The notes below the pieces were generated by a model that saw nothing but the letters and a program-made list of their open reading frames with translations, had not been told where the DNA came from and did no database searches. Below, piece by piece: positions 384-29,267 of a DNA stretch of 35,654 nucleotides (positions are counted from its first letter, which is position 1; the number at the start of each line of letters is the position of its first letter). The position numbers and the translations under genes were made by a program. The DNA is from a virus: UHGV virus genome UHGV-0232315; one strand, 5' to 3'.

Positions 384-941
384 TCACATAAACATCTGGA
401 TTTGCTCGTTTTTTAGTTGGTTGATTTTTTCGCGCAATCTGATCTTTTCATCAGCTTTTTCCAAAGAGGCTGGTGACATGCAGTTAATCAAAGCGTCAAG
501 GTGCTCTGGAGATTTGATAATAAAGAACTTTTTGTATTTATTAACAAAAACGACAGAGCATTTTTTACGTTTAAGAAGCTCAATCACGTTACTCAGAGTA
601 CCCGTGCTCTTCGTATCCCAAACCATTAATCCATAATCGGCTTCTTCTGCCATTTTGAGATCTTTCGCAGTGAAAAACGCGCGAGTGCCGGCTGCATGGC
701 TAGTACTTACTACATGTACAGGCCATGAGCCAAGATTATTGCGCGGTTTTTCTGAGCTACTGAATACTGTGGCTTTTTCACATCCAAGTTCTAGCAATAC
801 GCGTTGAACAGATGCATCAACACCATTGGCATCACCAACTACAATACGAAAACGCGAGTTAACAATTTTTTTCAGACGATCCACGATGAGTGTGTCAAGG
901 TTTTTGATGGTTATTGAACCAGCAACAAATACCGTAGTCAT
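384..941 (-). CDS. DprA/SLOG-like Rossmann-fold protein (ShosA-like candidate)
   Basis: ORF-track protein with VFVAGS, IVVGDANGVD (DprA-type GxARGID-like) and STGTLSNVIE (LOG-type PGGxGT-like) motifs; ORF-track start 953 is TTG, I place the start at ATG 941 preceded by GGAG; 2 nt after the upstream gene stop (translational coupling). Confidence 0.6.
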   Translation of the reverse strand: MTTVFVAGSITIKNLDTLIVDRLKKIVNSRFRIVVGDANGVDASVQRVLLELGCEKATVFSSSEKPRNNLGSWPVHVVSTSHAAGTRAFFTAKDLKMAEEADYGLMVWDTKSTGTLSNVIELLKRKKCSVVFVNKYKKFFIIKSPEHLDALINCMSPASLEKADEKIRLREKINQLKNEQIQMFM

Positions 942-943
942 CA

Positions 944-1525
944 CTATCTCCAAGTCAAAGCTGCAACATAAATGCTTCTAACCTTAGTATAATCGTTTAG
1001 CACAGCACAAGCAGCCTCCATAGATGCGCCTGTATGGTAAAGGTCGTCAATGATAAGGACATTCCAGTTGCCATTATTCTCAATACTGTCATTAACAGAG
1101 AACGAATTACCCAGCGCCGTGATTTTCTCTTCTTTTGTATTCAGGTTCTTTAGCGAAGCCCCGCCGGGGGCTTTCAACAAGAGGTCATCGAAGCATGGTT
1201 TGCCAACTAGTTTGGCTAGTTCCTGAGCTATTTCGGTCACTGGCTGGCGTGCACGCTGATTAGATGCAGCCATTGGAACGATAAACCCGACATTGCTGAA
1301 ATGAGGAAAGGCATGCTCTGCTAGGCATTGGGCTAAAGGCTTAACTTGTGACCAATCGTTACGGTATTTAAGCTGGAAAAGAGATTCGCCTACCTCAGTA
1401 CGCTCAGTCTCAAACCGCATATGTCCCCACTCATCGTAACCAATGGGAATGCTGCGGATGCTGTGTTTATCCATCGCAAGACCTAATTCCCAATTTCCAA
1501 CAATCTGTTTTATGTTGACTTTCAT
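944..1525 (-). CDS. Phosphoribosyltransferase (PRTase)-fold protein (ShosT-like candidate)
   Basis: Classic type I PRTase PRPP-binding motif VLIIDDLYHTGASM near the C-terminus; ATG start 1525; first gene of a two-gene minus-strand operon. Confidence 0.65.
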   Translation of the reverse strand: MKVNIKQIVGNWELGLAMDKHSIRSIPIGYDEWGHMRFETERTEVGESLFQLKYRNDWSQVKPLAQCLAEHAFPHFSNVGFIVPMAASNQRARQPVTEIAQELAKLVGKPCFDDLLLKAPGGASLKNLNTKEEKITALGNSFSVNDSIENNGNWNVLIIDDLYHTGASMEAACAVLNDYTKVRSIYVAALTWR

Positions 1526-1948: not shown

Positions 1949-4285
1949 ATGATTGAAGAGGTAGTTATTGACAAGGTAGGCTCATATAATGGCCCTACGC
2001 AGCTTTTACATGGACTTTCTAAATTTAACTATTTATATGGAGCTAATGGTGCAGGTAAAACAACTATAAGTAAAATTATTAATGACCCTGAACAATATCC
2101 AACATGTCCGATTAAATGGAAAAATAATATATCTTTAATAAGCTACGTATATAATAAAGATTTTGTTGAAAGAAATTTTAGTCAAGATAAAATTAAAGGT
2201 GTATTTACCCTTGGTAGCGATCTTAAGGAGGATGAAGAGAAACTAATATCTCTTAAAGAAGAAAAAAATAAGCTAATGGAATCTATTATAGCAAAGGGAA
2301 AGTTAATAGATGGTGGTGATAATGAATTAGGCGTTATTAAAAAAATCGAAGACCATGAAAAATCTTTTAAAGATTCATGTTGGAAGCAAAAAGTAAAACA
2401 TGACAATGTGTTCTCAAAGGCTTTTGAGGGATTAAGGAATAGTAGTGAAAAATTTAAAGCCAGAGTGTTGGCTGAGTATGAAAATAATACATCAGAAGTT
2501 TGCTCAATAGCAGAGTTAATTGAGAAAGCAAAAATTGTTTTTTCTACTGAATTGACATCACATGTATCAATTACAATTCCATCCTTCAATGGGATAGATG
2601 ATATTTTGAGTAGGGAAATTTGGAGTGAGCGTATTCTAGGGAAAAAAGACGTTAGTGTTTCAGACTTAATTACAATGCTCAATAACAGTGATTGGGTTAA
2701 GGAGGGTTTAACATATTTCAGTAAATCTAATCCCAAGTGCCCATTCTGCCAGCAGGATGTAAATGATAATATATTTGATAATCTTTCATCATATTTTGAT
2801 AAAACATATGAGTTAAAAAAAAGAGAAATCGATGCATTGGTTTTACAATATGAATATCAACTTAATAATATCTTGAAGGCGATAGATGATATAAGGGCGA
2901 TTAAATCTCCATTCATAAATTATGAAGTGTTTGAGGATAAGGCTAAGATAGTATTATCTGAATTAAACAAGAATTTTGAATTGGCAAAAAATAAACGCAA
3001 TTTTTTAAGTGAATCAGTTCATTTTAGTGACTTAAGTGAAGTTGTTGATGATTTTATTTCTTTTTTGAATGATTCAAATCTATTGATAGATAATAATAAC
3101 AAAATATATAGTAATAGAAAGGTAGAGGCTAGTAATCTTTCTAAGCAGATATGGGCATATATCGTAAAGGTGGAGTTAAAGTCTGAAATAACTTCTTACC
3201 GTAGCAAATCTGATAAATTTAATAGGACGTTACAAGGACTTAAATCTGGGATAGAAGAAGACAAAAAGAAGTTAATGTTAAATACTTCGGCTATTGAGGC
3301 AATTGAGTCTAATAAAACCAGTACTCTTCCAACTATTACAAAAATTAACAAGATTCTGGACTCTTATGGCTTCAAAAATTTTTACTTAAAACCCTCCGAA
3401 GATAAAAAGCATTATATGATAGTAAGAGATAGTGGAGATAATGCTCGTACAACCCTTAGTGAGGGAGAAAAGACATTTATCACTTTTTTGTACTTTTATA
3501 GCCTTGTTAGAGGGAGTGATAATGCATCAGGTGTTTTAGATGATCGTGTTGTAGTATTTGATGATCCAATTTCAAGTTTAGATAGTGATATTCTGTTTAT
3601 TGTAAGTTCGTTGATTAAAGATTTAATGGAGGATGTTCGTAAGGATGAAGGAAATATTAAGCAAATTATATTCCTTACTCATAATATTTATTTTCATAAA
3701 GAGTTGACTTTTAATACCAAAAGATCCGGTAATCAAGCAATGAAAGAGGAGACTTTTTGGATTGTAAGGAAAAAAGGGAAGGTTTCATATCTTGAAAAGT
3801 GCGAATCAAACCCAATAAAAACGTCTTATGATTTGCTCTGGTGCGAATTGAGAAGAACAGACATTAATAATAATACTATACAAAATACAATGCGAAGGAT
3901 TTTGGAGAATTACTTTAAGATATTAGGTGGGATGGATATTAGGAAGCTTGAGTGTCATTTTTATGGTGATGAAAAAATCATATTTAAATCTTTAGTGTCA
4001 TGGATTAATGATGGTTCCCATTTTGCAGGTGATGATCTTTATATGAATTTAGATACGGAGTCTGTGCAAAAATATTTAATTGTTTTTCAGAAGATATTTG
4101 AATGTAGTGAGCATACTGCCCATTACAAAATGATGATGGGTGAGTTTTATAAACCGTTAAATGAGTCACTTCATCTACAAGATGAGTTTGATATAGATGA
4201 TAGTGCGAATGATGAGTATGCTTCGTCAAAAATTGAGATAAAAGATGGAATAAACACATCTCTACATAGCAACACATATTTGTAA
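1949..4285 (+). CDS. ABC-type (AAA_13-like) ATPase with coiled-coil CxxC hook; RloC/PrrC-like candidate anticodon nuclease
   Basis: Walker A GANGAGKT (aa 32-39), Walker B/D-loop VVVFDDPISSLD, internal CPFC motif between Walker motifs, C-terminal R-x3-E..H arrangement (RRILEN ... H); very AT-rich relative to phage backbone; GAGG RBS. Confidence 0.55.
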   Translation: MIEEVVIDKVGSYNGPTQLLHGLSKFNYLYGANGAGKTTISKIINDPEQYPTCPIKWKNNISLISYVYNKDFVERNFSQDKIKGVFTLGSDLKEDEEKLISLKEEKNKLMESIIAKGKLIDGGDNELGVIKKIEDHEKSFKDSCWKQKVKHDNVFSKAFEGLRNSSEKFKARVLAEYENNTSEVCSIAELIEKAKIVFSTELTSHVSITIPSFNGIDDILSREIWSERILGKKDVSVSDLITMLNNSDWVKEGLTYFSKSNPKCPFCQQDVNDNIFDNLSSYFDKTYELKKREIDALVLQYEYQLNNILKAIDDIRAIKSPFINYEVFEDKAKIVLSELNKNFELAKNKRNFLSESVHFSDLSEVVDDFISFLNDSNLLIDNNNKIYSNRKVEASNLSKQIWAYIVKVELKSEITSYRSKSDKFNRTLQGLKSGIEEDKKKLMLNTSAIEAIESNKTSTLPTITKINKILDSYGFKNFYLKPSEDKKHYMIVRDSGDNARTTLSEGEKTFITFLYFYSLVRGSDNASGVLDDRVVVFDDPISSLDSDILFIVSSLIKDLMEDVRKDEGNIKQIIFLTHNIYFHKELTFNTKRSGNQAMKEETFWIVRKKGKVSYLEKCESNPIKTSYDLLWCELRRTDINNNTIQNTMRRILENYFKILGGMDIRKLECHFYGDEKIIFKSLVSWINDGSHFAGDDLYMNLDTESVQKYLIVFQKIFECSEHTAHYKMMMGEFYKPLNESLHLQDEFDIDDSANDEYASSKIEIKDGINTSLHSNTYL

Positions 4286-4334: not shown

Positions 4335-5363
4335 TTAGTTAAGCTCATATGGAGAAAATTCTATAAGTTTTTCCCCGAGCCATGCATTAATTTCTCTAAA
4401 TCGTTTTTGCAAAGGAATTAATTCATTTATCACAAAAACCTTACTAGCCTTCTCCACATCCCCAAATCCCCCGACATTATTAGGCATAATCCCCATCATT
4501 TGCGGTGGAACGCGGTGTGCCGCCATCATGTCATCGCGACTAACATTTTTGATATTCAGAAACTCATCCTTCGCTGCGACTTCTGATAACGGGATAATCT
4601 GAAGCCCGTCCTTTTTGCCGTTAGGTGAGTACATAAACAGGTTGCGGAAGTTGCCCGGCCCTTTGGCGCTTTTCATCGCATTGCGGAGGTTGTTCACATC
4701 CTCCTGGTTTTGCGCGGCATCGGTCATGTACATGATAAAGCCCGCATGACTGCCGTTAATGTAATACTTGCGACGGAACAGCGTGGCGGACTCGTTGAGC
4801 AGGGCTGACGGAATGGCAGAAAGATAACCGGGCAGGCCGTAGATCTCCTGATTAATATCCGGTTCCATCAGATGAAAAATGCTGCCTTTCGTGAACTGAT
4901 ACGGCTGGGTTGTCATACCGTATTGCACAAACCAGTAGGTATCCAGGTCTAATCCGCGTCGGGTGTATTTTGCCAGCGCAGGTTCAAGGGCGATCACTTC
5001 ACCGAAGCGGTTCGTGCGTTTCTCCAGATAGGCGTTGCCAAATACCAGATAGTCCTGCACAAAACGCGAAAAAGCTTGCTGGCTGAGCAGAGGATGAGGG
5101 ATATAGGTACTGGTCAGAATGTTGCACTTTACTGCAATCGGGGAACTGTGATGCACGGCAGCGCGGAAGGTGCGCGCCAGTCCGTCAAAGCTGACGGGCG
5201 GCTCATACCAACGGTCCATCTGTACGCATTCCACATAGTCCAGTAATTCTCGGCGGTCCAGAACAGGAACGGGATCGCCGAAGCTGAATGCTTCGGCTGT
5301 AGTCTGGTTTTTATGCTGGATCTGATTCGTCGCCGCAGTGCGGTTTTTCTTACTCTTTCCCAT
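4335..5363 (-). CDS. Q: Portal protein (P2 gpQ-like)
   Basis: Protein MGKSKKNRTAA... with P2 Q-like length and position; ORF-track start 5366 is TTG, ATG at 5363 overlaps the stop of P (TGATG). Confidence 0.9.
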   Translation of the reverse strand: MGKSKKNRTAATNQIQHKNQTTAEAFSFGDPVPVLDRRELLDYVECVQMDRWYEPPVSFDGLARTFRAAVHHSSPIAVKCNILTSTYIPHPLLSQQAFSRFVQDYLVFGNAYLEKRTNRFGEVIALEPALAKYTRRGLDLDTYWFVQYGMTTQPYQFTKGSIFHLMEPDINQEIYGLPGYLSAIPSALLNESATLFRRKYYINGSHAGFIMYMTDAAQNQEDVNNLRNAMKSAKGPGNFRNLFMYSPNGKKDGLQIIPLSEVAAKDEFLNIKNVSRDDMMAAHRVPPQMMGIMPNNVGGFGDVEKASKVFVINELIPLQKRFREINAWLGEKLIEFSPYELN

Positions 5364-7129
5364 CAAAAAATCTCCACAATATTGCTGGTATTGGCGGACT
5401 CGCCCTGCAGCGGTTCGTTAAACAGTGCGTGCATCGTTGCCCAGGCCAGATCGGCGTGGCTGGCTTCTTCGCTGCGGCTGGCTTCATAGGTTGGGCGGTT
5501 GCCACTGGCGGTGGTTGCGCGACGGATTGCCATAAATGACTGCGCAATGTCGGTGTGCCCGGCGTCAAACTCCAGACGGCGGTGGCTGATAATGTCGTAG
5601 GCCTTGAGTACCAGGGCGTTTTTAACGTTGGGGTTGTAGACAAACTCCCGGACGGCAGGAAAGAACGCTTTCACGTTCTCGTAAACCCCGTGACCAACGC
5701 CGGTTGAGTCGATACCGATATAAGTCACGTTGTACTGCTCGGTAAGTTTTTTGATGGCGTCAGCCTGGGCGCGGAAGTCCATCCCGCGCCACTGGTGACG
5801 CTCAAGAATGCGGAACTTACCACCCGGCACGGCTGGCGGTGCCACCACCACGCATCCGGCGCTGTCGCCGTTTTGCGTACCTTTTGCCGGGTCATAACCG
5901 ATCCACACTTCGCGCCAGCCAAACGGGCGCAGCGCCAGTGCATGAAAGTCGGTCCAGATTTCCCAGCTGTCTACCATGCACGCCTGCAGCTCGCTGAGAG
6001 GGAACACGGACGCGAGATCGTCCACAAACTCGCACATCAGCAGGTTCTGGTATTCGTCCGGGCTGTACTCCATGCGCAACTGGTCAAGGTCGAACAGGTT
6101 ACAGCCGCCGCGCACCGCATCTTCCACGGTGACTATCTGGCGGTATTGCCCGTCTGCGCACAGCAGGCCGGGGGCCAGATTTCTGTGGGACAGGTCGATG
6201 TCCACCTTATCGGCTTTGTTGCGCCCACGGTTGAACAGCGCACCGGACCAGAACGGATAAGCACTGTGTGTCAGACTGGATGGCGTGGAAAAATAGGTTT
6301 GTCGCCATTTTTTGTGAATAGCCATACCGGAAGCCACTTTGCGCAGCTCCTGGAATTTCGGTATCCAGAAATATTCATCCAGATACAGGTTGCCGTGGTA
6401 ACTCTGGGCCGTGCGGGCATTGGTGCCGAGGAAGTAAAGCGTGGCCCCGTTAGGAAGCACCATCGGATCGCCTTTCAGCTCCACCTCGACTTCTTTGGCG
6501 AAGTCGATGATGTACTGCTTAAAGACGTGGGCCTGTGCCTTACTGGCGGAAAGGAAAATCTGGTTACGTCCGGTAAGCAGAGCGTCAATCAGGGCTTCAC
6601 GGGCAAAGTAAAAGGTCGCGCCGATCTGGCGTGATTTCAGCAGGTTGCGGATGCGGTTGGTTTTTCCGGCTTCCCACCAGTGGCGCTGGTAGTTGAACAT
6701 GGAGGAATGGAAGATTTCTTCCAGCTTCTCAATCTGTTCATCGGTGAAAACATTCTTTTCCGGCTGACGGCGCGGGCCTTTGTTGCGGTTGGCGACGTTA
6801 GGGTTTAAGTCGGCTTCGTTGCCGCCATTGTTAAACTTGCCGATGCGCGCGTGGCGCTCCGACTGGCGCGCCAGCAGGTCAATCTCTTTGAAATCTTTCC
6901 CTTCTTTGTGCTCCTTCATAATGAGCTGGCAGTAGCGTGCGGCGGTGGTGAGCTGCATCTGATCCAGCGGCCCATAGTCACCCCACTTGTCGCGTTTTTT
7001 CCAGCTATGAACGGTTGCAACTTTCTCGCCCAGCATTTCAGCAATGCGGGCGACGCGGTATCCCTGAAAGTACAGCAGCATGGCCTGCCGACGGGGATCG
7101 AGATCTGCGGGTGTCAGTGTGGTGTTCAT
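5363..7129 (-). CDS. P: Terminase large (ATPase) subunit (P2 gpP-like)
   Basis: 588-aa product upstream of Q in the divergent P2 arrangement; ATG 7129. Confidence 0.9.
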   Translation of the reverse strand: MNTTLTPADLDPRRQAMLLYFQGYRVARIAEMLGEKVATVHSWKKRDKWGDYGPLDQMQLTTAARYCQLIMKEHKEGKDFKEIDLLARQSERHARIGKFNNGGNEADLNPNVANRNKGPRRQPEKNVFTDEQIEKLEEIFHSSMFNYQRHWWEAGKTNRIRNLLKSRQIGATFYFAREALIDALLTGRNQIFLSASKAQAHVFKQYIIDFAKEVEVELKGDPMVLPNGATLYFLGTNARTAQSYHGNLYLDEYFWIPKFQELRKVASGMAIHKKWRQTYFSTPSSLTHSAYPFWSGALFNRGRNKADKVDIDLSHRNLAPGLLCADGQYRQIVTVEDAVRGGCNLFDLDQLRMEYSPDEYQNLLMCEFVDDLASVFPLSELQACMVDSWEIWTDFHALALRPFGWREVWIGYDPAKGTQNGDSAGCVVVAPPAVPGGKFRILERHQWRGMDFRAQADAIKKLTEQYNVTYIGIDSTGVGHGVYENVKAFFPAVREFVYNPNVKNALVLKAYDIISHRRLEFDAGHTDIAQSFMAIRRATTASGNRPTYEASRSEEASHADLAWATMHALFNEPLQGESANTSNIVEIF

Positions 7130-9929: not shown

Positions 9930-10394
9930 ATGAAGTTTGTTGCGCCAGAACAGGCACCGGAACAGGCGGAAATCATCAGAAATACGCCGTTCTGGCCTGA
10001 TGTGGACCTGTCGGAGTTTCGCAGTGTCATGCGCACTGACGGCACGGTGACGCAGCCGCGTTTAAAGCAGGTTGCGCTGTCGGCAATTTCGGAGGTCAAC
10101 GCAGAGCTGTATGAGTTTCGCAGACGTCAGCAGATGCTGGGGTATGTGTCGCTGGCTGAGGTTCCGGCGGAACAGTTGGACGGCAAAAGTGAGCGCATTC
10201 AGCACTATTTCAACGCGGTTTACTGCTGGGCACGCGCCATGCTCAACGAACGATACCAGGACTATGACGCCACGGCATCCGGTGTGAAGCGAGGCGAGGA
10301 ACTGGCGGAATCCAGCGGTGATTTGTGGCGTGACGCACGCTGGGCCATCAGCCGGGTACAGGATGCGCCGCACTGCACAGTGGAGCTTATCTGA
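9930..10394 (+). CDS. L: Head completion/stabilisation protein (P2 gpL-like)
   Basis: ORF 9867-10394; start placed at ATG 9930 preceded by GGAGAAAG RBS. Confidence 0.85.
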   Translation: MKFVAPEQAPEQAEIIRNTPFWPDVDLSEFRSVMRTDGTVTQPRLKQVALSAISEVNAELYEFRRRQQMLGYVSLAEVPAEQLDGKSERIQHYFNAVYCWARAMLNERYQDYDATASGVKRGEELAESSGDLWRDARWAISRVQDAPHCTVELI

Positions 10395-10597
10395 TGAAAG
10401 TGCGTGCGCATCAGTATGACACGGTGGACGCGCTTTGCTGGCGTCATTACGGGCGCACGCAGGGTGTCACGGAGCAGGTACTGAAGGCAAATCCGGGGCT
10501 TGCCGAATACGGCCCCTTTTTACCTCACGGGCTGCAGGTGGAGCTGCCGGACATTCCGACCACCACCACCGTGCAGACCGTCCAGCTATGGGACTGA
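10394..10597 (+). CDS. X: Tail protein X (P2 gpX-like)
   Basis: 67 aa; ATGA overlap with L stop. Confidence 0.85.
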   Translation: MKVRAHQYDTVDALCWRHYGRTQGVTEQVLKANPGLAEYGPFLPHGLQVELPDIPTTTTVQTVQLWD

Positions 10598-10600
10598 ATT

Positions 10601-10816
10601 ATGACGCTTGAGCGAATCAGCACCTTTATCACGTATTGCATCGCCGTCGTGCTGGCCTGGCTGGGCGATTTGTCCATCAAGGATGCCTCAACGCTGGGCG
10701 GCCTGATGATTGGTGTGCTGATGCTGGCTATCAACTGGTACTACAAGCACAAAGCCTACCAGCTTCTGCGCGACGGGCAGATCTCGCGGGAGGGCTATGA
10801 ATCCATCAATCGTTAA
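10601..10816 (+). CDS. Holin (two predicted TM segments)
   Basis: 71 aa with hydrophobic stretches ISTFITYCIAVVLAWLG and LGGLMIGVLMLAINWYY, immediately upstream of the endolysin. Confidence 0.8.
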   Translation: MTLERISTFITYCIAVVLAWLGDLSIKDASTLGGLMIGVLMLAINWYYKHKAYQLLRDGQISREGYESINR

Positions 10817-11309
10817 ACGCTGCCTTGTCGGGGCCGTGCTGGCTATTGCTGCCACGCTGCCGGGTTTTCAGCAGCTTCACACCTCCGTGGAGGGGCTGAA
10901 ACTGATTGCCGATTACGAAGGCTGTCGTCTGCAGCCGTATCAGTGCAGCGCGGGTGTCTGGACCGACGGCATTGGTAATACATCGGGCGTCATTCCCGGC
11001 AAAACAATCACGGAACGACAGGCAGCAGAAGGGCTGATCTCCAACGTGCTGCGTGTGGAGCGGGCACTGGAAAGGTGTGTGAAGCAACAGCCACCACAGA
11101 AGGTGTATGACGCTACGGTGTCGTTTGCCTTCAACGTGGGGACGGGCAATGCCTGTAGTTCCACGCTGGTGAAATTGCTCAATCAGCGGCGCTGGGCGGA
11201 TGCGTGCCGACAGTTGCCGCGCTGGGTTTATGTAAAAGGTGTGTTTAATCAGGGGCTGGATAATCGCCGTGCGCGGGAGATGGCCTGGTGTTTACAGGGA
11301 GCAAACTGA
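10797..11309 (+). CDS. Endolysin, GH24 lysozyme with N-terminal signal-anchor-release (SAR) segment (P1 Lyz-like)
   Basis: YEGCRLQPYQCSAGVWTDGIGNT lysozyme catalytic region preceded by hydrophobic CLVGAVLAIAATLPGF; occupies the P2 K position. Confidence 0.85.
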   Translation: MNPSIVKRCLVGAVLAIAATLPGFQQLHTSVEGLKLIADYEGCRLQPYQCSAGVWTDGIGNTSGVIPGKTITERQAAEGLISNVLRVERALERCVKQQPPQKVYDATVSFAFNVGTGNACSSTLVKLLNQRRWADACRQLPRWVYVKGVFNQGLDNRRAREMAWCLQGAN

Positions 11310-11310
11310 A

Positions 11311-11688
11311 ATGAAAAAGAAATTAATCAGCGGACTATTTCTGATGTTATGGATGGCGCTGTTAATCGCAGCAATGGTGTATCCGCAGGGGATTTTTCCG
11401 GTACTGTCAGCGTCCGGCGTTTGGGTAGCCTGTTTGCTGACATGGGCGGTAATTCCGGTAGCACTGGCTGCGTTAATTAAGAATGGCCCGCTCTGGCAGG
11501 AGTTAAGGGCATCTTTGCTGAAGACAATTACCCGAAAAGAAAACGTATTTACCAGTTGGGTGATGCGATTGCTGATTGTTGTAAGTCTCGCCTGGACGGG
11601 GTGGGCTATTACCCTGGTCTTTTATCTGCTGACCGTTATTGCCTTCTGGATGACCCGTAATCAGATGGCGCAACAGGTATCAGCATGA
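11311..11688 (+). CDS. lysA: LysA-like membrane protein (lysis timing)
   Basis: ORF 11239-11688; start placed at ATG 11311 (MKKKLISGLF...) 1 nt after the lysozyme stop; multiple hydrophobic segments. Confidence 0.7.
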   Translation: MKKKLISGLFLMLWMALLIAAMVYPQGIFPVLSASGVWVACLLTWAVIPVALAALIKNGPLWQELRASLLKTITRKENVFTSWVMRLLIVVSLAWTGWAITLVFYLLTVIAFWMTRNQMAQQVSA

Positions 11689-12113
11689 ACCGGTTGCTGC
11701 TGGTTGTGCTGGCGTTATTACTGGCGGCGCTGGGCTGGCAGACGTGGCGGCTGGCTGATGCCAGCCAGACCATCAGCACGCAGGCAAACAAGCTGCAGAG
11801 CAAAAGCCAGGCACTGGCAAAGAGCAACAGCCAGCTTATCAGCCTGTCCATTCTGACTGAAACCAATAACCGGGAGCAGGCGCGGCTCTATGCCGAAGCA
11901 GAACAGACCAGCGTACAGCTGAGACAACGACAACGCCGGATCGAGGAACTGAAACGTGAGAACGAGGATTTACGCCACTGGGCTGATACTCCTTTGCCTG
12001 CTGACATTATCCGGCTGCGGGAACGTCCGGCACTCACCGGAGGTGCAGCTTACCGTCAGTGGTTGTCCGCGAGTGACGCCGTGTCGGCTGGAGCAGGCAG
12101 CACCACGCACTAA
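11685..12113 (+). CDS. lysB: LysB, Rz-like inner-membrane spanin
   Basis: N-terminal TM segment LLLVVLALLLAALGW followed by coiled-coil-like region; P2 lysB position. Confidence 0.8.
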   Translation: MNRLLLVVLALLLAALGWQTWRLADASQTISTQANKLQSKSQALAKSNSQLISLSILTETNNREQARLYAEAEQTSVQLRQRQRRIEELKRENEDLRHWADTPLPADIIRLRERPALTGGAAYRQWLSASDAVSAGAGSTTH

Positions 12114-12246
12114 CGGTGATCTGAATGCGTTGCTGGATGAAACGGAGGCCGCCTGGGCGGTCTGTGCAGACAAAGTGGACATGATTATTGCGTGTCAGGA
12201 GCGAAACAGTGAACAAACCACAATCCCTGCGCCACGCCCTCAATAA
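11956..12246 (+). CDS. lysC: LysC, Rz1-like outer-membrane lipoprotein spanin
   Basis: GTG start inside lysB in another frame; signal peptide with lipobox LTLSGC; extends past the lysB stop. Confidence 0.7.
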   Translation: MRTRIYATGLILLCLLTLSGCGNVRHSPEVQLTVSGCPRVTPCRLEQAAPRTNGDLNALLDETEAAWAVCADKVDMIIACQERNSEQTTIPAPRPQ

Positions 12247-12640
12247 AGCGGTGCCTTATGTCCGCAATAACCCGGACAAACTGCATCTGTTTGTGGATAA
12301 CGGTTCGCTGGTTGCCACGGGGGCCAGCTCCATGTCGTGGGAGTACCGTTACACACTGAACGCGGTGATTGAGGATTTCAGCGGCGACCAGAATCTGCTG
12401 ATGGCCCCGGTTTTGCTGTGGCTGAGGGATAACCAGCCCGATGCCATCAATAACCCGGCGTTACGGGAAAAACTATTCACCTTTGAGGTGGATATTCTGC
12501 GCAACGATGTCTGTGATATCAGCCTTAACCTGCAACTGACGGAACGTGTGCTGGTCAGCACTGACGGCAGTGTGTCGAGCGTTGAAGCTGTAGCGGAACC
12601 CGATGAACCTGAAGAAATGTGGACGGTGAAACGTGGCTGA
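12209..12640 (+). CDS. R: Tail completion protein R (P2 gpR-like)
   Basis: ORF 12188-12640 (TTG); start placed at GTG 12209 after AGGAG RBS. Confidence 0.8.
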   Translation: MNKPQSLRHALNKAVPYVRNNPDKLHLFVDNGSLVATGASSMSWEYRYTLNAVIEDFSGDQNLLMAPVLLWLRDNQPDAINNPALREKLFTFEVDILRNDVCDISLNLQLTERVLVSTDGSVSSVEAVAEPDEPEEMWTVKRG

Positions 12641-13090: not shown

Positions 13091-13621
13091 TTACGCACTT
13101 AATAAACTTAAATAACTTTTTATGCTTTGGCAAAAAGGGAAAAGGTCTATTTTAATTTTCCAGTTTTTTTTGTTTTGAACCCCAGAAGCAATAATAGAAC
13201 CATCCCAATATTTTATTCCATTTTTGCCGGTCTTTTTTGTTAACTCAAAACTTAATGCGTGAATAATTTTATTGCAGCATTCGCGTATAGAACCTTTAAC
13301 ATGACCATCTATAACAAAAAGTATATTTTCATGTTCTTCAAATGCTTCTTTCTCAGGTGAGTAATCTGGGTTCCACTCATGTTCATTAGTGTCTTGGAGA
13401 ATTCGTAGTTTTGTACAAAGGCTAATAAGATTGTTGCTAATGGTATATTCCAACCATCCGTTGTACGATAACTCCTCCATTTCAAATTCAGTTACTATAG
13501 AACCATCATATACTTTCTGTGTGGAATATATACGCTGTAAATAAAATTCAGATGAACAGCATAATTGCTCAATTATTCTTGCGTGTTCTTCTATAGCGTA
13601 ATAATCAATTGGATGGCTCAT
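13091..13621 (-). CDS. Hypothetical protein encoded by an AT-rich island between S and V (P2 orf30 position)
   Basis: ORF 13091-13660 on the strand opposite to the tail operon; likely start ATG 13621 (MSHPIDYY...) with GAAAGG RBS; no motif I recognise. Confidence 0.6.
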   Translation of the reverse strand: MSHPIDYYAIEEHARIIEQLCCSSEFYLQRIYSTQKVYDGSIVTEFEMEELSYNGWLEYTISNNLISLCTKLRILQDTNEHEWNPDYSPEKEAFEEHENILFVIDGHVKGSIRECCNKIIHALSFELTKKTGKNGIKYWDGSIIASGVQNKKNWKIKIDLFPFCQSIKSYLSLLSA

Positions 13622-13652
13622 TCTTTTACCTTTCTTCGATTGGAATTGTATT

Positions 13653-13670
13653 TGTGTCATTTACCACACA
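13653..13670. promoter_or_regulatory. TGT-N12-ACA dyad upstream of V (candidate late promoter element)
   Basis: TGTgtcatttaccacACA; centre is only 55 bp from the V ATG and overlaps the 5' end of the antisense island ORF. Confidence 0.4.
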
Positions 13671-25891: not shown

Positions 25892-26944
25892 TTACGGGGT
25901 AATGCCAACCGCTGCCGCCACTTTGCCGCCACTTGGCAGCGTTGCCAGAGGATTGAAACGGAGCGCCGTTTCCAGATGATCCGGTGCCAGATGAGCGTAA
26001 CGCATAGTCATTTTTATATCGTGATGTCCGAGGATTTTTTGCAAAGCAAGGATATTTCCACCCGACATCATGAAATGTGCCGCAAACGTATGGCGCAGAA
26101 CGTGTGTCAGTTGACCGCGAGGGAGCACGATTGACGTTTTTTCCATCACGGATAAAAATTGAAAATAGCAGTCTGTGAAGAAATTGAACCCATCAAGCGC
26201 CATGATCTCTTCATAAAGCTCTTTACTGATAGGGATGCTTCTGTTTTTCTTCCCCTTCGTTCTTACAAAGGTAATTCGGTATTTAGTCACCTGTGATCGG
26301 GTAAGGTTTATTGCTTCTCGCCAGCGTGCGCCTGTGCTTAAGCATATCTTGACTACCAGTGCCAGAATTGGGTCCTGACGTTTGCAATCAGCCAGCAGTT
26401 CAACAATCTGCTCATGGGTAAGCCATGCCATCTCTTTTTCTGCGATGGTGAATTTTCGCATGTTCTCCAGTGGGTTTGGATACGACCATTCGCCCAGGCG
26501 GGATAGTTCGCTAAAAACACTACTTAGATAGCTTTGCTCCAGGTTAATGGTGACCGGGCTGGCTCCTTTCTTCCATTTCTCGCTGAAGTAGATCTCACCT
26601 GTCAGGCGTTTATCTCGATAGTGGGCAAACATTTTAGAGGTGAGATCGGTTGCAAGAGGATTGCCCAGAGCGTCAACCATCAGCAGCAATTTGTCATAGA
26701 CATGCTGCCCAGCAGTCAGAGATTTACCATGTAATTTGAACCATAGCTCAACCACGTCTTTCAGTGTTCGACGATCCACTGATTCACCTAGCCAAGGCTT
26801 TGCTTCGGTTTCTTCCATCGTGTGACGCTCAAAAGCCAGAGCTTCGCCTTTGGTGGCGAATTGTTTACGCACACGACGTCCACTACGTCCGGCGGGATAA
26901 CATTCGCACAGCCATTTTCCTGTGGTGAGTTTTCGTACTGCCAT
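25892..26944 (-). CDS. int: Tyrosine integrase
   Basis: 350 aa MAVRKLTTGKWLCECYPAGRSGRRVRKQF... with C-terminal ...HVLRHTFAAHFMMSGGNILALQKILGHHDIKMTMRYAHL catalytic region (R..H-x-x-R..Y). Confidence 0.9.
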   Translation of the reverse strand: MAVRKLTTGKWLCECYPAGRSGRRVRKQFATKGEALAFERHTMEETEAKPWLGESVDRRTLKDVVELWFKLHGKSLTAGQHVYDKLLLMVDALGNPLATDLTSKMFAHYRDKRLTGEIYFSEKWKKGASPVTINLEQSYLSSVFSELSRLGEWSYPNPLENMRKFTIAEKEMAWLTHEQIVELLADCKRQDPILALVVKICLSTGARWREAINLTRSQVTKYRITFVRTKGKKNRSIPISKELYEEIMALDGFNFFTDCYFQFLSVMEKTSIVLPRGQLTHVLRHTFAAHFMMSGGNILALQKILGHHDIKMTMRYAHLAPDHLETALRFNPLATLPSGGKVAAAVGITP

Positions 26945-27026: not shown

Positions 27027-28358
27027 TCATTGGAGCAAGAAAACTTTTAAGGTGTTTTTGAATATTCTAACAGGGTCTTCTACACCTGCATTTCCTTTTA
27101 AAATATGATAATCACTTATTTCAGCCCATCTGTTTTTTTCATCGTTTTCAGAAGGAAGTAAAGGAGAACCTTCTGGCATATATTTATAAGTTATACCAAA
27201 TAATGCATAATAGTAGATGTTGATGTTATATTGATCTGTCTGATATGGGAGTCTATTAACACCGAAGAAATTAATTATTAATTGTGCATCTATTTTATCT
27301 TCTACGTAGTTAAGGGCCAGTTCACGACCAAACGAATAAAGAATTACTGCAAGGGTTCGATAACAGCAATAGCCTGGTATAAATTTATTGCTGATTTCAT
27401 TTTGAGATAAAATTTGATAAATTTCTAGATATCTTGATAAGGTTTCAACTTCCCGTAGCGACAAGCCTTTTAGTTCGATAAATTTTTGAACTATATGAAT
27501 ACTACTTTCTCCAATTTCTTTTAGTCTTTCAGACTCGTTACATAGCATTCTAAAATGAGAGTTCGAAGCCAAAATTTTATCGTAATTGTTTTCAGTGAAA
27601 GTCACTGGCAGGCTGTAAGTGAATTTTATAAATTTATCAAGATATCTTTCTGAGTCAACACCTGCACCGTAAATATGATTTATTGATGCTTTCAATTGTG
27701 AGATGTTAGCAACTAACAAGAAGTTAAGATTTTCAGTGTCAAAAACATGTTTTATATTTTCGATGATAGAGATGGCAAAGCTTGGTTTACAACGGTCAAG
27801 TTCGTCAATGATAATTGTTATTTTATTTTCGCTAGTTAGTTCAGCAAGTACTTCCTTGAGAGCAAGCAAATGTTTCTTTGCTTCAATATGATCATCAAGC
27901 AGTGCTTCTACAGTACCATCTATAGCTGAGTTAGCCGCATCTTTAATAGCATCTTCGAATTCATCCGCAATATCATCTGCATTTTGTTTTAAAATCCACC
28001 CAGCGCCAGCTTTGAGTACAGTTTTAAGTCCAAATCTCAATGCTGGTAATGCCTTTGATATTAATTCCTTCTTTTCACTCTCTGGATATAATGCAACTAT
28101 TGCAGCCATTATAGTAAGTATGGGAGCATCATTATGATCTTCAGTAAATGCATCAATATATACTACTTTATGCCCAGATTCATTTTTTTCAATCAATGCC
28201 GCTAATTTTTTTGAAAATTCGGTTTTACCGGTACCCCAGTCCCCATCGATAACAATAGGGGATATTTTTAAGGGGGACTCGAGTAAGCTTATTATTTTTT
28301 CAGCAATGATTTTTCTATTATACTCATCTCTGTTTTCAAAAGTCATATCATTATTCAT
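27027..28358 (-). CDS. KAP-family P-loop NTPase
   Basis: Walker A GDWGTGKT (GxWGxGKT KAP signature) and Walker B IIIDELDRC; ORF-track start 28367 is TTG, I place the start at ATG 28358 after AAGG; AT-rich. Confidence 0.65.
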   Translation of the reverse strand: MNNDMTFENRDEYNRKIIAEKIISLLESPLKISPIVIDGDWGTGKTEFSKKLAALIEKNESGHKVVYIDAFTEDHNDAPILTIMAAIVALYPESEKKELISKALPALRFGLKTVLKAGAGWILKQNADDIADEFEDAIKDAANSAIDGTVEALLDDHIEAKKHLLALKEVLAELTSENKITIIIDELDRCKPSFAISIIENIKHVFDTENLNFLLVANISQLKASINHIYGAGVDSERYLDKFIKFTYSLPVTFTENNYDKILASNSHFRMLCNESERLKEIGESSIHIVQKFIELKGLSLREVETLSRYLEIYQILSQNEISNKFIPGYCCYRTLAVILYSFGRELALNYVEDKIDAQLIINFFGVNRLPYQTDQYNINIYYYALFGITYKYMPEGSPLLPSENDEKNRWAEISDYHILKGNAGVEDPVRIFKNTLKVFLLQ

Positions 28359-28369
28359 ATGAAGCAACC

Positions 28370-28578: not shown

Positions 28579-29142
28579 TTAATAATTGACGATCGCGCTT
28601 CTAATTTTTCCTATGATATCAATTTCATCTATTTTGCATTCAAAGGAACTGCTGCCACCATCGACATTTAGACGACGTCCCGGCAGTCTTGTCAGATTCC
28701 TGATAGCAACCTCGCCATCAATATCAACGATCCACTTACCATCACGTACATCCTCATAATCCGAATCACAGATAAACTCTGATGCGCCATCGATCACAAC
28801 AAAAGGTTTTTTTAGTTTTTCAGGCAAAAAGTTGTTGTCGAAAATGTAGTAACCATCAGGAAGTAGTTTTCCGCTTGATAAAATCTTCCTTTCGATCTCT
28901 TTTGTGTTTTCTTTTTGTGAACTTTCTTTTGAACCTTGCCCAGTAGTTAGCCACTCTAGCGACGTGCCGGTTTCAAGTGCACATTGGATTACCCATTCTG
29001 CCGGGAATGAATCACGCATATAGCGCGTGGCTAAGGTGCTTTTAGAAATGCCCAAATGATCACACAAAGCTTGTCTTGTCTTGAAACCATAGGCTTCAAC
29101 CATGCGCTCTATGGCCCCACGACCGCCTTTTTCCAAATTCAT
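28579..29142 (-). CDS. cI: Immunity repressor CI (phage 186 CI-like)
   Basis: ORF 28579-29148 (GTG); ATG 29142 after GGAG; N-terminal HTH region and C-terminal ...[27 protein letters not shown]... resembling 186 CI. Confidence 0.8.
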
Positions 29143-29267
29143 GGTCACTCCAAGTGAACTTTTACCTTGACGATTTCATGATGTGATCGTATGTTTGCAG
29201 TGTTCACATAATACAAACGATCAGTATTCATCCTGATTAATCATTGCTAAAAGAGGAATGTTGCATC
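29143..29267. promoter_or_regulatory. Lysis-lysogeny switch region (divergent pL/pR-type promoters and operators)
   Basis: Intergenic region between divergent cI and apl; dyads GTGAAC(29155-29160)/GTTCAC(29212-29217) and TGATCGT(29184-29190)/ACGATCA(29217-29223); two GATC sites. Confidence 0.5.

What the first reader, a model, noticed from the sequence alone, without database searches (positions are those of the whole stretch)
10601..12246. Lysis cassette uses a SAR (signal-anchor-release) endolysin plus embedded spanin pair
The lysozyme has an N-terminal hydrophobic segment (CLVGAVLAIAATLPGF) before the catalytic EG..D..T region and resembles P1 Lyz-type SAR endolysins rather than a cytoplasmic lysozyme. 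It follows a small two-TM holin. lysC (lipobox LTLSGC) starts inside lysB in another frame and runs beyond it.
Basis: partly seen in the sequence, partly recalled or inferred. Interest (0 to 1): 0.25.

Follow-up and report, generated by a model that had tools for sequence, protein, structure and literature searches.

The report
P2-type prophage lysis cassette, SAR endolysin
This is the ordinary host-lysis gene block of a common P2-like E. coli prophage, in which the cell-wall enzyme carries a membrane-anchor-and-release N-terminus like phage P1 lysozyme; the same arrangement is already described in the literature and annotated in public genomes.

Summary
Window 10601-12246 encodes five proteins:
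- a 71-aa two-TMD class II holin of the HP1 family;
- a 170-aa GH24 lysozyme with an N-terminal hydrophobic segment;
- the LysB i-spanin;
- the LysC o-spanin lipoprotein.

The lysozyme is a P1 Lyz-class SAR endolysin. It is 39% identical to P1 Lyz. It has the caging Cys43, and Cys9 sits at the cytoplasmic edge of the N-terminal segment. This three-Cys pattern recurs in 18 of 20 diverse relatives that have such a segment.

lysC starts inside lysB in the +1 frame and runs 133 nt past its stop. That is the "overlapped" P2 architecture, not "embedded" as the title says.

Compared with P2, only the holin and endolysin are non-homologous, so those two genes were swapped as a module.

None of this is new:
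- a 98%-identical protein (Klebsiella phage KP12) is published as a SAR endolysin;
- P2-like phage HP1 has an experimentally characterised pinholin/SAR-endolysin pair;
- phage Midge is annotated gene-for-gene the same way;
- the cassette matches in 1058 of 5426 complete E. coli genomes.

Pinholin status and non-cleavage of the N-terminus remain inferred.

The parts
10394..10597 (+). gpX tail/baseplate gene immediately upstream. It marks the P2 late-operon position of the cassette (X-Y-K-lysA-lysB-lysC-R-S).
   Evidence: PF05489 117 bits. 61% identical to P2 X.
10601..10816 (+). Class II holin of the HP1 family, 71 aa, with two TMDs and a charged C-terminal tail. Probable pinholin.
   Evidence: PF16080 37.3 bits (cutoff 28.8). 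PF04971 (P21 S) 23.9 bits, below its cutoff of 26. phrog_20 holin, E=9e-27. PGAP name 'HP1 family phage holin'. 30% identity over 57 aa to S21, E=7e-5. Hydropathy.
10797..11309 (+). SAR endolysin, a GH24 muramidase of the P1 Lyz class, 170 aa. The SAR segment is about residues 9-24. Key residues are C9, E41, C43, C50 and T56.
   Evidence: PF00959 137 bits. P1 Lyz 1xjt E=2e-26. Alignment A1 at 39% identity. Foldseek best hit 1xjt, TM 0.74. 98% identical to KP12.peg.319.
11311..11688 (+). LysA-like multi-pass membrane protein, 125 aa, about four hydrophobic segments. Probable lysis-timing regulator or antiholin. Not mentioned in the finding.
   Evidence: NF038378 121.8 bits. phrog_162 E=6e-43. 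26% identity to P2 LysA, E=7e-7. Precomputed Pfam PF28015 'LysA' on homologues. Hydropathy.
11685..12113 (+). LysB, the Rz-like inner-membrane spanin (i-spanin), 142 aa, with an N-terminal TMD at residues 3-17.
   Evidence: TIGR03495 172 bits (cutoff 92.75). phrog_89 E=1e-45. 32% identity to P2 LysB, E=4e-15.
11956..12246 (+). LysC, the Rz1-like outer-membrane lipoprotein spanin (o-spanin), 96 aa precursor. Lipobox L18-S19-G20-C21, with Gly at +2. It lies in the +1 frame relative to lysB, overlaps lysB by 158 nt, runs 133 nt beyond it, and overlaps gpR by 38 nt.
   Evidence: NF038368 124 bits, PF23793 57 bits. 41% identity to P2 LysC over residues 1-92 of both, E=5e-26. GAGGAA upstream of the GTG.
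12209..12640 (+). gpR tail completion gene immediately downstream. It closes the cassette.
   Evidence: PF06891 157 bits. Start at 12209 in public annotations.

Best explanation
This is the lysis module of a P2-like (Peduoviridae, Wadgaonvirus-like) E. coli prophage. It sits at the P2 position between tail genes X and R and is expressed as part of the late operon.

Inferred mechanism:
1. The 170-aa lysozyme is exported by Sec. It stays tethered to the inner membrane by its weakly hydrophobic N-terminal SAR segment (residues about 9-24, N-in, with K7/R8 in the cytoplasm). It is enzymatically inactive because catalytic Cys50 is locked in a disulfide with Cys43.
2. The 71-aa HP1-family class II holin accumulates. 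At a set time it depolarises the membrane, probably through small 'pinholes'.
3. Loss of proton-motive force lets the SAR segment leave the bilayer. Cys9 attacks the C43-C50 disulfide and frees Cys50. The enzyme refolds into the active E41/C50/T56 muramidase and degrades the murein.
4. The LysB/LysC spanin complex then disrupts the outer membrane.
5. The LysA-like four-TMD protein modulates timing, as P2 lysA does.

Shown here: gene identities, family memberships, conserved residues, gene architecture, and homology to experimentally studied systems.

Inferred by homology: export, tethering, disulfide isomerisation, pinhole size, and the role of LysA.
For: Families and scores.

P1 Lyz similarity:
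- P1 Lyz is the best solved-structure hit, E=2e-26.
- Identity is 39%, with E41/C43/C50/T56 aligned to P1 E42/C44/C51/T57.
- HP1 Lys shares the same residues and has a Cys in its N-terminal segment.
- The AF2 model (pLDDT 70.8) is closest to 1xjt, the active full-length P1 Lyz, with TM 0.74 over 172 columns.

SAR segment:
- Its hydrophobicity and Gly/Ala/Ser/Thr fraction (2.11 and 0.44) match P1 Lyz (2.26 and 0.44), HP1 Lys (2.26 and 0.56) and R21 (2.17 and 0.62).
- Among 26 representatives below 75% identity that have an N-terminal hydrophobic segment, 20 have the C43/C50 pair.
- 18 of those 20 carry a Cys in the segment, usually at its N-terminal edge.
- Only 2 of the 6 without the pair do (Fisher p=0.013).
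- This argues that the segment is retained in the mature enzyme.

Literature:
- In P1 Lyz the catalytic Cys is held in a disulfide until activation (PMC3556154).
- The SAR-endolysin/pinholin paradigm is set out in PMC9025707.
- The P2-like phage HP1 has an experimentally supported pinholin plus a Sec-dependent SAR endolysin (PMC7312051).
- Phage Midge is annotated 'holin class II / SAR endolysin / putative antiholin / i-spanin / o-spanin' in the same order.

P2 comparison: X, lysA, lysB, lysC, R and S are homologous, but the holin and endolysin are not.
Against: - No experiment exists on this allele. Non-cleavage by signal peptidase cannot be tested here: small residues at A16/A18 and G23 could fit a -3/-1 cleavage rule, and SignalP called the HP1 Lys N-terminus a signal peptide.
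- Cys9 does not align column-for-column with P1 Cys13.
- The C43/C50 pair also occurs in 28 relatives without any N-terminal segment, so the pair alone is not diagnostic.
- Holin TMD1 is strongly hydrophobic (mean KD 2.12, against 0.57 for S21 TMD1 and 1.46 for HP1 Hol), so the S21-style TMD1 exit is not supported.
- The match to the P21 S family is below the gathering score.
- Heptamer modelling of the near-identical holin in the KP12 paper gave low confidence (pLDDT 50.8).
- My AF2 model is only moderate, with residues 42-65 below pLDDT 50.
Confidence: 0.85

Rival explanations
1. The N-terminal segment is an ordinary cleavable Sec signal peptide. The lysozyme would then be secreted as a soluble periplasmic enzyme and held inactive by some other means, as with the signal-peptide endolysin of Oenococcus phage fOg44 (that example is from my own knowledge).
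For: The n-region (K7, R8), a short hydrophobic core and small residues (A16-I17-A18, G23) could satisfy a -3/-1 cleavage rule (read directly from the sequence). SignalP and related tools called the homologous HP1 Lys N-terminus a signal peptide (PMC7312051).
Against: A Cys in the N-terminal segment is conserved in 18 of 20 diverse relatives that have the C43/C50 pair. That is hard to explain if the segment is discarded. The segment matches experimentally uncleaved SAR domains in hydrophobicity and composition. The best structural match includes the N-terminal helix of full-length P1 Lyz. The KP12 paper reports the purified protein at about the full-length mass, 18.6 kDa, which is weak evidence.
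Confidence: 0.07
2. The endolysin is a SAR endolysin, but the 71-aa holin is a canonical large-hole holin rather than a pinholin. Alternatively it is a pinholin that works differently from S21, without TMD1 leaving the membrane.
For: TMD1 is as hydrophobic as TMD2 (2.12 and 2.07), unlike S21 TMD1 at 0.57. The match to the P21 holin S family is below threshold. P1 Lyz also works with the canonical holins LydA and LydC (PMC9025707). The cassette keeps a LysA-type regulator and has no dual-start motif.
Against: It is a member of the HP1 holin family. The founding member of that family killed cells without beta-galactosidase leakage or lysis (PMC7312051). It is distantly homologous to S21 (E=7e-5). 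SAR endolysin genes typically adjoin pinholin genes (PMC9025707).
Confidence: 0.3
3. The true endolysin start is the downstream GTG at 10836, as annotated in ON470620. That would give a 157-aa protein without a functional membrane segment, i.e. a cytoplasmic endolysin.
For: One public record annotates that start.
Against: The ATG at 10797 has GGGAGGG just upstream, whereas the GTG at 10836 has no comparable site. PGAP, KP12 and phage 500465-1 all use 10797. Residues 1-13, including K7-R8-C9, are conserved at the protein level in relatives down to 54% identity.
Confidence: 0.02

Closest known systems
Klebsiella phage KP12 lysis cassette (KP12.peg.316-320; PMC9902359). Also Escherichia phage 500465-1 (Wadgaonvirus) and Klebsiella phage 4LV2017.
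   Same: 97% nucleotide identity across X to R. The endolysin is 98% identical. [quoted passage not shown]
   Different: Three amino-acid substitutions in the endolysin. Public records place the lysC start (12073 or 12130) downstream of the lipobox, which I consider mis-annotation.
Bacteriophage P1 Lyz (PDB 1XJT and 1XJU), the prototype SAR endolysin activated by disulfide isomerisation.
   Same: GH24 fold. E-x8-C-x5-T triad. Caging Cys two residues after the Glu. A Cys in the N-terminal SAR segment. Similar SAR hydrophobicity and composition.
   Different: Only 39% identity. The SAR Cys is at the cytoplasmic edge (C9, directly after K7-R8) rather than mid-segment (C13). It lacks P1's 11-residue insertion after the FNVG motif. 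The genomic context is a P2-type cassette, not P1's lyz-lydD-lydE operon. The holin is unrelated to LydD.
Haemophilus phage HP1 hol/lys (PMC7312051), a P2-like phage with an experimentally characterised pinholin and SAR endolysin.
   Same: Peduoviridae. Same holin Pfam family (PF16080). The endolysin has the same E/C/C/T residues and a Cys in its N-terminal segment. The holin and endolysin genes overlap.
   Different: Holin only 21% identical and endolysin 34% identical. HP1 places the cassette after the tail tube gene and lacks a LysA homologue. HP1 Hol TMD1 is less hydrophobic.
Bacteriophage P2 lysis cassette Y-K-lysA-lysB-lysC.
   Same: Same position between X and R. Same gene order. Homologous lysA (weak), lysB and lysC. 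Same overlapped lysB/lysC/R layout. LysC N-termini align from residue 1.
   Different: P2 Y is a 93-aa holin and P2 K is a soluble lambda-R-type endolysin. Neither shows meaningful similarity to the window proteins (E=0.002 over 50 aa and E=0.014 over 24 aa). The holin-endolysin pair has been replaced as a module.
Phage 21 S21/R21, the prototype pinholin and SAR endolysin.
   Same: 71-aa two-TMD class II holin followed by a SAR GH24 endolysin and spanins. Holin 30% identical over 57 aa.
   Different: [quoted passage not shown] S21 has a dual-start antiholin and a weakly hydrophobic TMD1. Phage 21 spanins are embedded, whereas here they are overlapped.

Membership tests
SAR endolysin, P1 Lyz class | GH24 / T4-lysozyme-like muramidase domain | tested here: met
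   PF00959 137 bits. 1xjt E=2e-26. Foldseek TM 0.74 to 1xjt.
SAR endolysin, P1 Lyz class | [quoted passage not shown] | tested here: met
   E41, C50 and T56 align with P1 Lyz E42, C51 and T57. The motif definition is in PMC3556154.
SAR endolysin, P1 Lyz class | N-terminal, weakly hydrophobic, Gly/Ala/Ser/Thr-rich transmembrane segment with a positively charged N-flank and no lipobox | tested here: met
   Residues 9-24 have mean KD 2.11 and a GAST fraction of 0.44, with K7-R8 upstream. This is the same range as P1 Lyz, HP1 Lys and R21.
SAR endolysin, P1 Lyz class | Regulatory cysteines: a Cys in the SAR segment, a caging Cys and the catalytic Cys | tested here: met
   C9, C43 and C50 are present. 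C9 and C50 are invariant and C43 is at least 90% conserved in 20 close homologues. 18 of 20 diverse relatives with the segment and the pair have the SAR Cys.
SAR endolysin, P1 Lyz class | The segment is not cleaved by signal peptidase and leaves the membrane on depolarisation; export depends on Sec | not testable with these tools
   No signal-peptide predictor was available and no experiment exists. This is inferred from the conserved SAR Cys and from experiments on P1 Lyz and HP1 Lys.
Pinholin (S21 / HP1 Hol type) | Small class II holin with two TMDs and a charged cytoplasmic C-terminus, encoded next to a SAR endolysin | tested here: met
   71 aa, hydrophobic segments at 6-21 and 29-44, C-terminal KHK...R...R tail, and a 20-nt overlap with the endolysin gene.
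Pinholin (S21 / HP1 Hol type) | Sequence membership of the HP1 holin or P21 holin S family | tested here: met
   PF16080 37.3 bits, above the 28.8 cutoff. PF04971 23.9 bits, below the 26 cutoff. BLASTP against S21 gives E=7e-5.
Pinholin (S21 / HP1 Hol type) | TMD1 is itself a weakly hydrophobic SAR-like helix that exits the bilayer | tested here: not met
   TMD1 mean KD is 2.12 with GAST 0.31, against 0.57 and 0.62 in S21 and 1.46 and 0.44 in HP1 Hol. This is a hydropathy proxy only.
Pinholin (S21 / HP1 Hol type) | Forms nanometre-scale holes that depolarise the membrane but do not pass a soluble endolysin | not testable with these tools
   This needs co-expression with a soluble endolysin or a leakage assay, as was done for HP1 Hol and P1 LydD.
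Two-component spanin, overlapped architecture (P2 LysB/LysC) | i-spanin: type II inner-membrane protein with an N-terminal TMD and a helical periplasmic domain | tested here: met
   TIGR03495 172 bits. TMD at residues 3-17. 32% identical to P2 LysB.
Two-component spanin, overlapped architecture (P2 LysB/LysC) | o-spanin: small outer-membrane lipoprotein with a lipobox | tested here: met
   NF038368 124 bits. L18-S19-G20-C21 with Gly at +2. 41% identical to P2 LysC from residue 1.
Two-component spanin, overlapped architecture (P2 LysB/LysC) | The o-spanin gene starts inside the i-spanin gene in another frame and extends beyond its stop. An embedded pair would lie wholly inside. | tested here: met
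   lysC 11956-12246 against lysB 11685-12113: +1 frame, 158-nt overlap, 133 nt beyond the stop. The PGAP note reads 'substantially overlapping although not fully embedded'. The 'embedded' label in the title is therefore not met.
P2 LysA-type lysis regulator (putative antiholin) | Multi-pass membrane protein encoded between the endolysin and lysB, homologous to P2 LysA | tested here: met
   NF038378 121.8 bits. PF28015 'LysA' on homologues. 26% identical to P2 LysA, E=7e-7. The regulatory role itself was not tested. The P2 record describes lysA as 'nonessential; affects timing of lysis'.

The most novel reading that the evidence does not exclude
The LysA-like four-TMD protein may be a dedicated membrane partner of the SAR endolysin, for example retaining or timing its release, rather than a holin antagonist.

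Two observations hint at this. The lysA frame is open for 24 codons across the 3' end of the endolysin gene. Naturally occurring 1-nt deletions fuse the two into a 296-aa lysozyme-LysA protein, and that fusion is seen in many independent assemblies of otherwise intact-looking prophages.

Separately, the holin, with its strongly hydrophobic TMD1, may be a pinholin that works without S21-style TMD1 exit.
Probability: 0.1. Interest if true: 0.35.

Novelty: already known. Interest (0 to 1): 0.08.

Why it matters
It matters little for discovery. The cassette is a textbook mosaic: the P2 scaffold (lysA, lysB, lysC) with a holin/SAR-endolysin module of the HP1/Fels-2 type. That module is widespread in Enterobacteriaceae prophages, already described in print and annotated in RefSeq.

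The practical value is annotation hygiene:
- Several public records truncate lysC so that the lipobox is lost.
- One record truncates the endolysin so that the SAR segment is lost.
- PHROG-derived labels call the LysA-like membrane protein an 'endolysin'.

The conserved Cys at the cytoplasmic edge of the SAR segment is a useful sequence marker for P1-Lyz-class, disulfide-caged SAR endolysins.

Tried and rejected
- P2 K as a relative of the endolysin: rejected. BLASTP gave E=0.014 over 24 aa.
- P1 LydD as a relative of the holin: rejected, E=0.59.
- Internal promoters or terminators within the cassette: the scan found no more than shuffled controls (4 against 3.3, and 5 against 5.6).
- A literature search on Cys13/Cys51 returned only unrelated papers.
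- Structure prediction used only close homologues, the only sequences allowed. It gave a moderate model (pLDDT 70.8, with the catalytic hairpin 42-65 poorly modelled). I therefore used it only for overall fold ranking, not for Cys-Cys geometry.
- Search for the GGG-deletion fusion variant in complete RefSeq E. coli genomes found no exact match. A 50-nt query cannot detect variants with flanking SNPs, so this is a weak negative.
- NCBIfam has no holin model that matches the holin.
- A downstream start for the endolysin (10836) and downstream starts for lysC (11998, 12073, 12130) were considered. I rejected them in favour of 10797 and 11956, based on ribosome-binding sites, N-terminal conservation and alignment with P2 LysC from residue 1.
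Full report
**1. What is in the sequence**

The interval 10601-12246 lies in a run of co-oriented genes. They match the P2 late operon order M-L-X-[lysis]-R-S.

| Gene | Coordinates | Product |
|---|---|---|
| gpX | 10394-10597 | tail/baseplate protein |
| holin | 10601-10816 | 71-aa membrane protein |
| endolysin | 10797-11309 | 170-aa lysozyme |
| LysA-like | 11311-11688 | 125-aa multi-pass membrane protein |
| lysB | 11685-12113 | 142 aa |
| lysC | 11956-12246 | 96 aa, +1 frame relative to lysB |
| gpR | starts 12209 | tail completion protein |

CLVGAVLAIAATLPGF is endolysin residues 9-24. LTLSGC is LysC residues 16-21.
- The endolysin ATG has GGGAGGG just upstream. The lysC GTG has GAGGAA upstream.
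- A consensus scan found no more promoter-like or terminator-like sites than shuffled controls. This is consistent with one operon.

**2. Gene identities**

- Holin: Pfam HP1 holin family PF16080 at 37.3 bits (cutoff 28.8). There is a sub-threshold hit to the P21 holin S family at 23.9 bits (cutoff 26). The PHROG holin family scores E=9e-27.
- Endolysin: PF00959 at 137 bits.
- LysB: TIGR03495 at 172 bits.
- LysC: NF038368 at 124 bits and PF23793 at 57 bits.
- The 125-aa protein: NF038378 at 121.8 bits. Its homologues carry the newer Pfam family PF28015 'LysA'.
- RefSeq's pipeline names a 99.9%-identical E. coli copy: 'HP1 family phage holin', 'lysozyme' (same 170-aa start), 'DNZ54_00345 family protein', 'Rz-like lysis system protein LysB' and 'Rz1-like lysis system protein LysC'. 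The LysC note says the gene is 'substantially overlapping although not fully embedded'.

**3. The endolysin**

- *Closest solved structure.* The best match by sequence is P1 Lyz (1xjt, E=2e-26). R21, DLP12 RrrD and several soluble GH24 lysozymes rank below it.
- *Alignment with P1 Lyz.* Identity with the P1 genome's Lyz is 39%. E41, C43, C50 and T56 align to P1 E42, C44, C51 and T57.
PMC3556154 states that in P1 Lyz the triad Cys is critical for regulation because it is held in a disulfide until activation.
- *N-terminal segment.* It has mean Kyte-Doolittle hydropathy 2.11 and 44% Gly/Ala/Ser/Thr.

| Protein | Mean hydropathy | Gly/Ala/Ser/Thr fraction |
|---|---|---|
| window endolysin | 2.11 | 0.44 |
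| P1 Lyz | 2.26 | 0.44 |
| HP1 Lys | 2.26 | 0.56 |
| R21 | 2.17 | 0.62 |

- *Diverse relatives.* I searched 1.84 billion cluster representatives and analysed the best 150.
  - Of 110 proteins below 75% identity that align across the catalytic residues, 26 have an N-terminal hydrophobic segment.
  - 20 of those 26 have the C43/C50 pair, and 18 of the 20 carry a Cys in the segment.
  - That Cys is nearly always at the N-terminal, cytoplasmic edge of the segment. Examples are KRC-, ICS-, GTC- and GGC-.
  - The two exceptions look N-terminally truncated.
  - Only 2 of the 6 without the pair have such a Cys (Fisher p=0.013).
  - This co-occurrence is what the P1-type thiol-disulfide switch predicts. 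It is my best in-silico argument that the segment is kept in the mature enzyme rather than cleaved.
  - The pair also occurs in 28 relatives with no N-terminal segment, so the pair alone is not diagnostic.
- *Structure prediction.* An AF2 model from close homologues was only moderate (pLDDT 70.8). Its best PDB match was 1xjt, the active full-length P1 Lyz, with TM 0.74 over 172 columns including the N-terminal helix.

**4. Start codons**

- One public record (ON470620) starts the endolysin at 10836 and so loses K7-R8-C9. RefSeq, KP12 and phage 500465-1 all use 10797. Residues 1-13 are conserved in relatives down to 54% identity. I accept 10797.
- For lysC, public records use 11998, 12073 or 12130. 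The last two delete the lipobox.
- The GTG at 11956 gives MRTRIYATGLILLCLLTLSGC. This aligns from residue 1 with the annotated 96-aa P2 LysC, MRTKIFAAGTVLTCLMLCAGC (41% identity, E=5e-26). I accept 11956.

**5. Spanin architecture**

- lysC begins 158 nt before the lysB stop and continues 133 nt beyond it.
- It also overlaps gpR by 38 nt. P2 has the same 38-nt lysC/gpR overlap.
- This is the 'overlapped' class. The finding's title says 'embedded', which is wrong, although its text is right.

**6. Comparison with P2**

- X (61%), R (50%), S (39%), LysC (41%), LysB (32%) and LysA (26%, E=7e-7) are homologous.
- The holin against P2 Y and the endolysin against P2 K show only marginal short matches (E=0.002 over 50 aa and E=0.014 over 24 aa).
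- The cassette is therefore the P2 scaffold with the holin-endolysin pair exchanged as a module.
- The same pair occurs in Fels-2, SopEPhi, SEN8 and many Klebsiella P2-like prophages. More distantly it occurs in Yersinia and Erwinia P2-like phages and in phage Midge.

**7. The holin**

- It is a member of the HP1 holin family. The founding member of that family killed cells without lysis or beta-galactosidase leakage, was required for phage release, and was interpreted as a pinholin (PMC7312051).
- It is distantly similar to the prototype pinholin S21 (30% over 57 aa, E=7e-5). I confirmed the S21 sequence against the phage 21 genome.
- Its TMD1 is as hydrophobic as its TMD2 (2.12 and 2.07). 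S21 TMD1 scores 0.57 and HP1 Hol TMD1 scores 1.46.
- I therefore treat 'pinholin' as likely (about 0.6) but inferred. I do not assume the S21 mechanism in which TMD1 leaves the bilayer.
- There is no dual-start motif. The LysA-like protein is the candidate timing regulator. The P2 record describes lysA as 'nonessential; affects timing of lysis', and Midge annotates its homologue as 'putative antiholin'.

**8. Mechanism**

The endolysin is exported by Sec and tethered in the inner membrane in an inactive state, with the C43-C50 disulfide formed. The holin triggers depolarisation. The SAR segment is released, Cys9 attacks the disulfide, and the E41/C50/T56 enzyme becomes active. The murein is degraded, and LysB/LysC then disrupt the outer membrane.

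Gene identities, residues and architecture are shown here. The dynamic steps are inferred from P1 Lyz, phage 21 and HP1.

**9. Novelty**

None.
- The cassette is 97% identical to Escherichia phage 500465-1, Klebsiella phages 4LV2017 and KP12, and others.
- KP12.peg.319 is 98% identical. [quoted passage not shown]
- Phage Midge carries expert annotation of the same five functions in the same order.
- The DNA matches in 1058 of 5426 complete E. coli genomes.

**10. Other things noticed**

- About 45 database proteins are in-frame endolysin-LysA fusions.
- One of them, P0013, results from a real 1-nt deletion in CCTGG at window position about 11287. It is seen in short-read-style metagenome assemblies (MEGAHIT/SPAdes contig names) of otherwise intact-looking prophages.
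- The prophage also carries low-GC cargo genes:
  - PADLOC candidate defence genes PDC-S06 and PDC-S20;
  - a weak ShosT-like hit;
  - an unannotated 189-aa ORF in the S-V slot where P2 has orf30.

Noticed in passing
window 11239-11310 and 11270-11290; L011:3434-3534, L012:3434-3534: The lysA reading frame is open for 24 codons upstream of its ATG, across the 3' end of the endolysin gene. About 45 database proteins of 277-296 aa are in-frame endolysin-LysA fusions with different junctions: NRRAR|RWPG, REMA|CVY and WCLQ|EQTE.

The REMA|CVY form (P0013) comes from a real 1-nt deletion in CCTGG at about 11287. It is found in many assemblies with short-read-style contig names (MEGAHIT/SPAdes), in otherwise intact-looking prophages.

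The GGG-deletion form was not found exactly in complete RefSeq E. coli genomes. Whether the fusion is functional or a decaying prophage is unknown.
   Followed up: partly
window 1949-4285 (+): A low-GC (about 0.30) 778-aa AAA_13 ATPase (PF13166, 547 bits). It matches the PADLOC candidate defence family PDC-S06 at 885 bits. It sits beside the P2 Q-like portal gene (ORF 4335-5366, minus strand; assigned by position only, not scanned), a known cargo position in P2-like phages.
   Followed up: partly
window 27027-28367 (-): A low-GC 446-aa KAP-family P-loop NTPase (PF07693, 174 bits). It matches the PADLOC candidate defence family PDC-S20 at 570 bits. It lies between the integrase (25892-26944, minus strand) and the CI-type repressor (28579-29148, minus strand).
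   Followed up: partly
window 13091-13660 (-): A 189-aa ORF (176 aa in PGAP, 'hypothetical protein') with GC about 0.40 and no Pfam or PADLOC hit. It occupies the gpS-gpV slot where P2 has the non-essential orf30, where vB_EcoM-813R9 has two unrelated genes, and where L011 has a DUF6216 gene. This looks like a variable cargo slot.
   Followed up: partly
window 384-1525 (-): Two overlapping minus-strand ORFs at the window's left end. ORF 944-1525 (193 aa) has weak PADLOC hits to ShosT (33 bits) and PsyrT (28 bits). ORF 384-953 (189 aa) has no hits. This may be a two-gene defence or toxin-antitoxin cargo.
   Followed up: no
L001:3180-3353, L002:1943-2416 and 3180-3350, L003:2418-2795 and 3237-3353; window 11311-11688: There are annotation problems in public relatives.
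- lysC is started downstream of its lipobox in KP12, vB_EcoM-813R9 and 500465-1.
- The endolysin is truncated to 157 aa in ON470620.
- The LysA-like membrane protein, and P2 lysA itself in NC_001895, are labelled 'endolysin' through phrog_162.
   Followed up: yes
P0164, P0182, P0213 and others: Many GH24 relatives have the same E-x-C...C...T cysteine pair but no N-terminal membrane segment. Some instead have a hydrophobic C-terminal extension. The pair is therefore not restricted to SAR endolysins.
   Followed up: no
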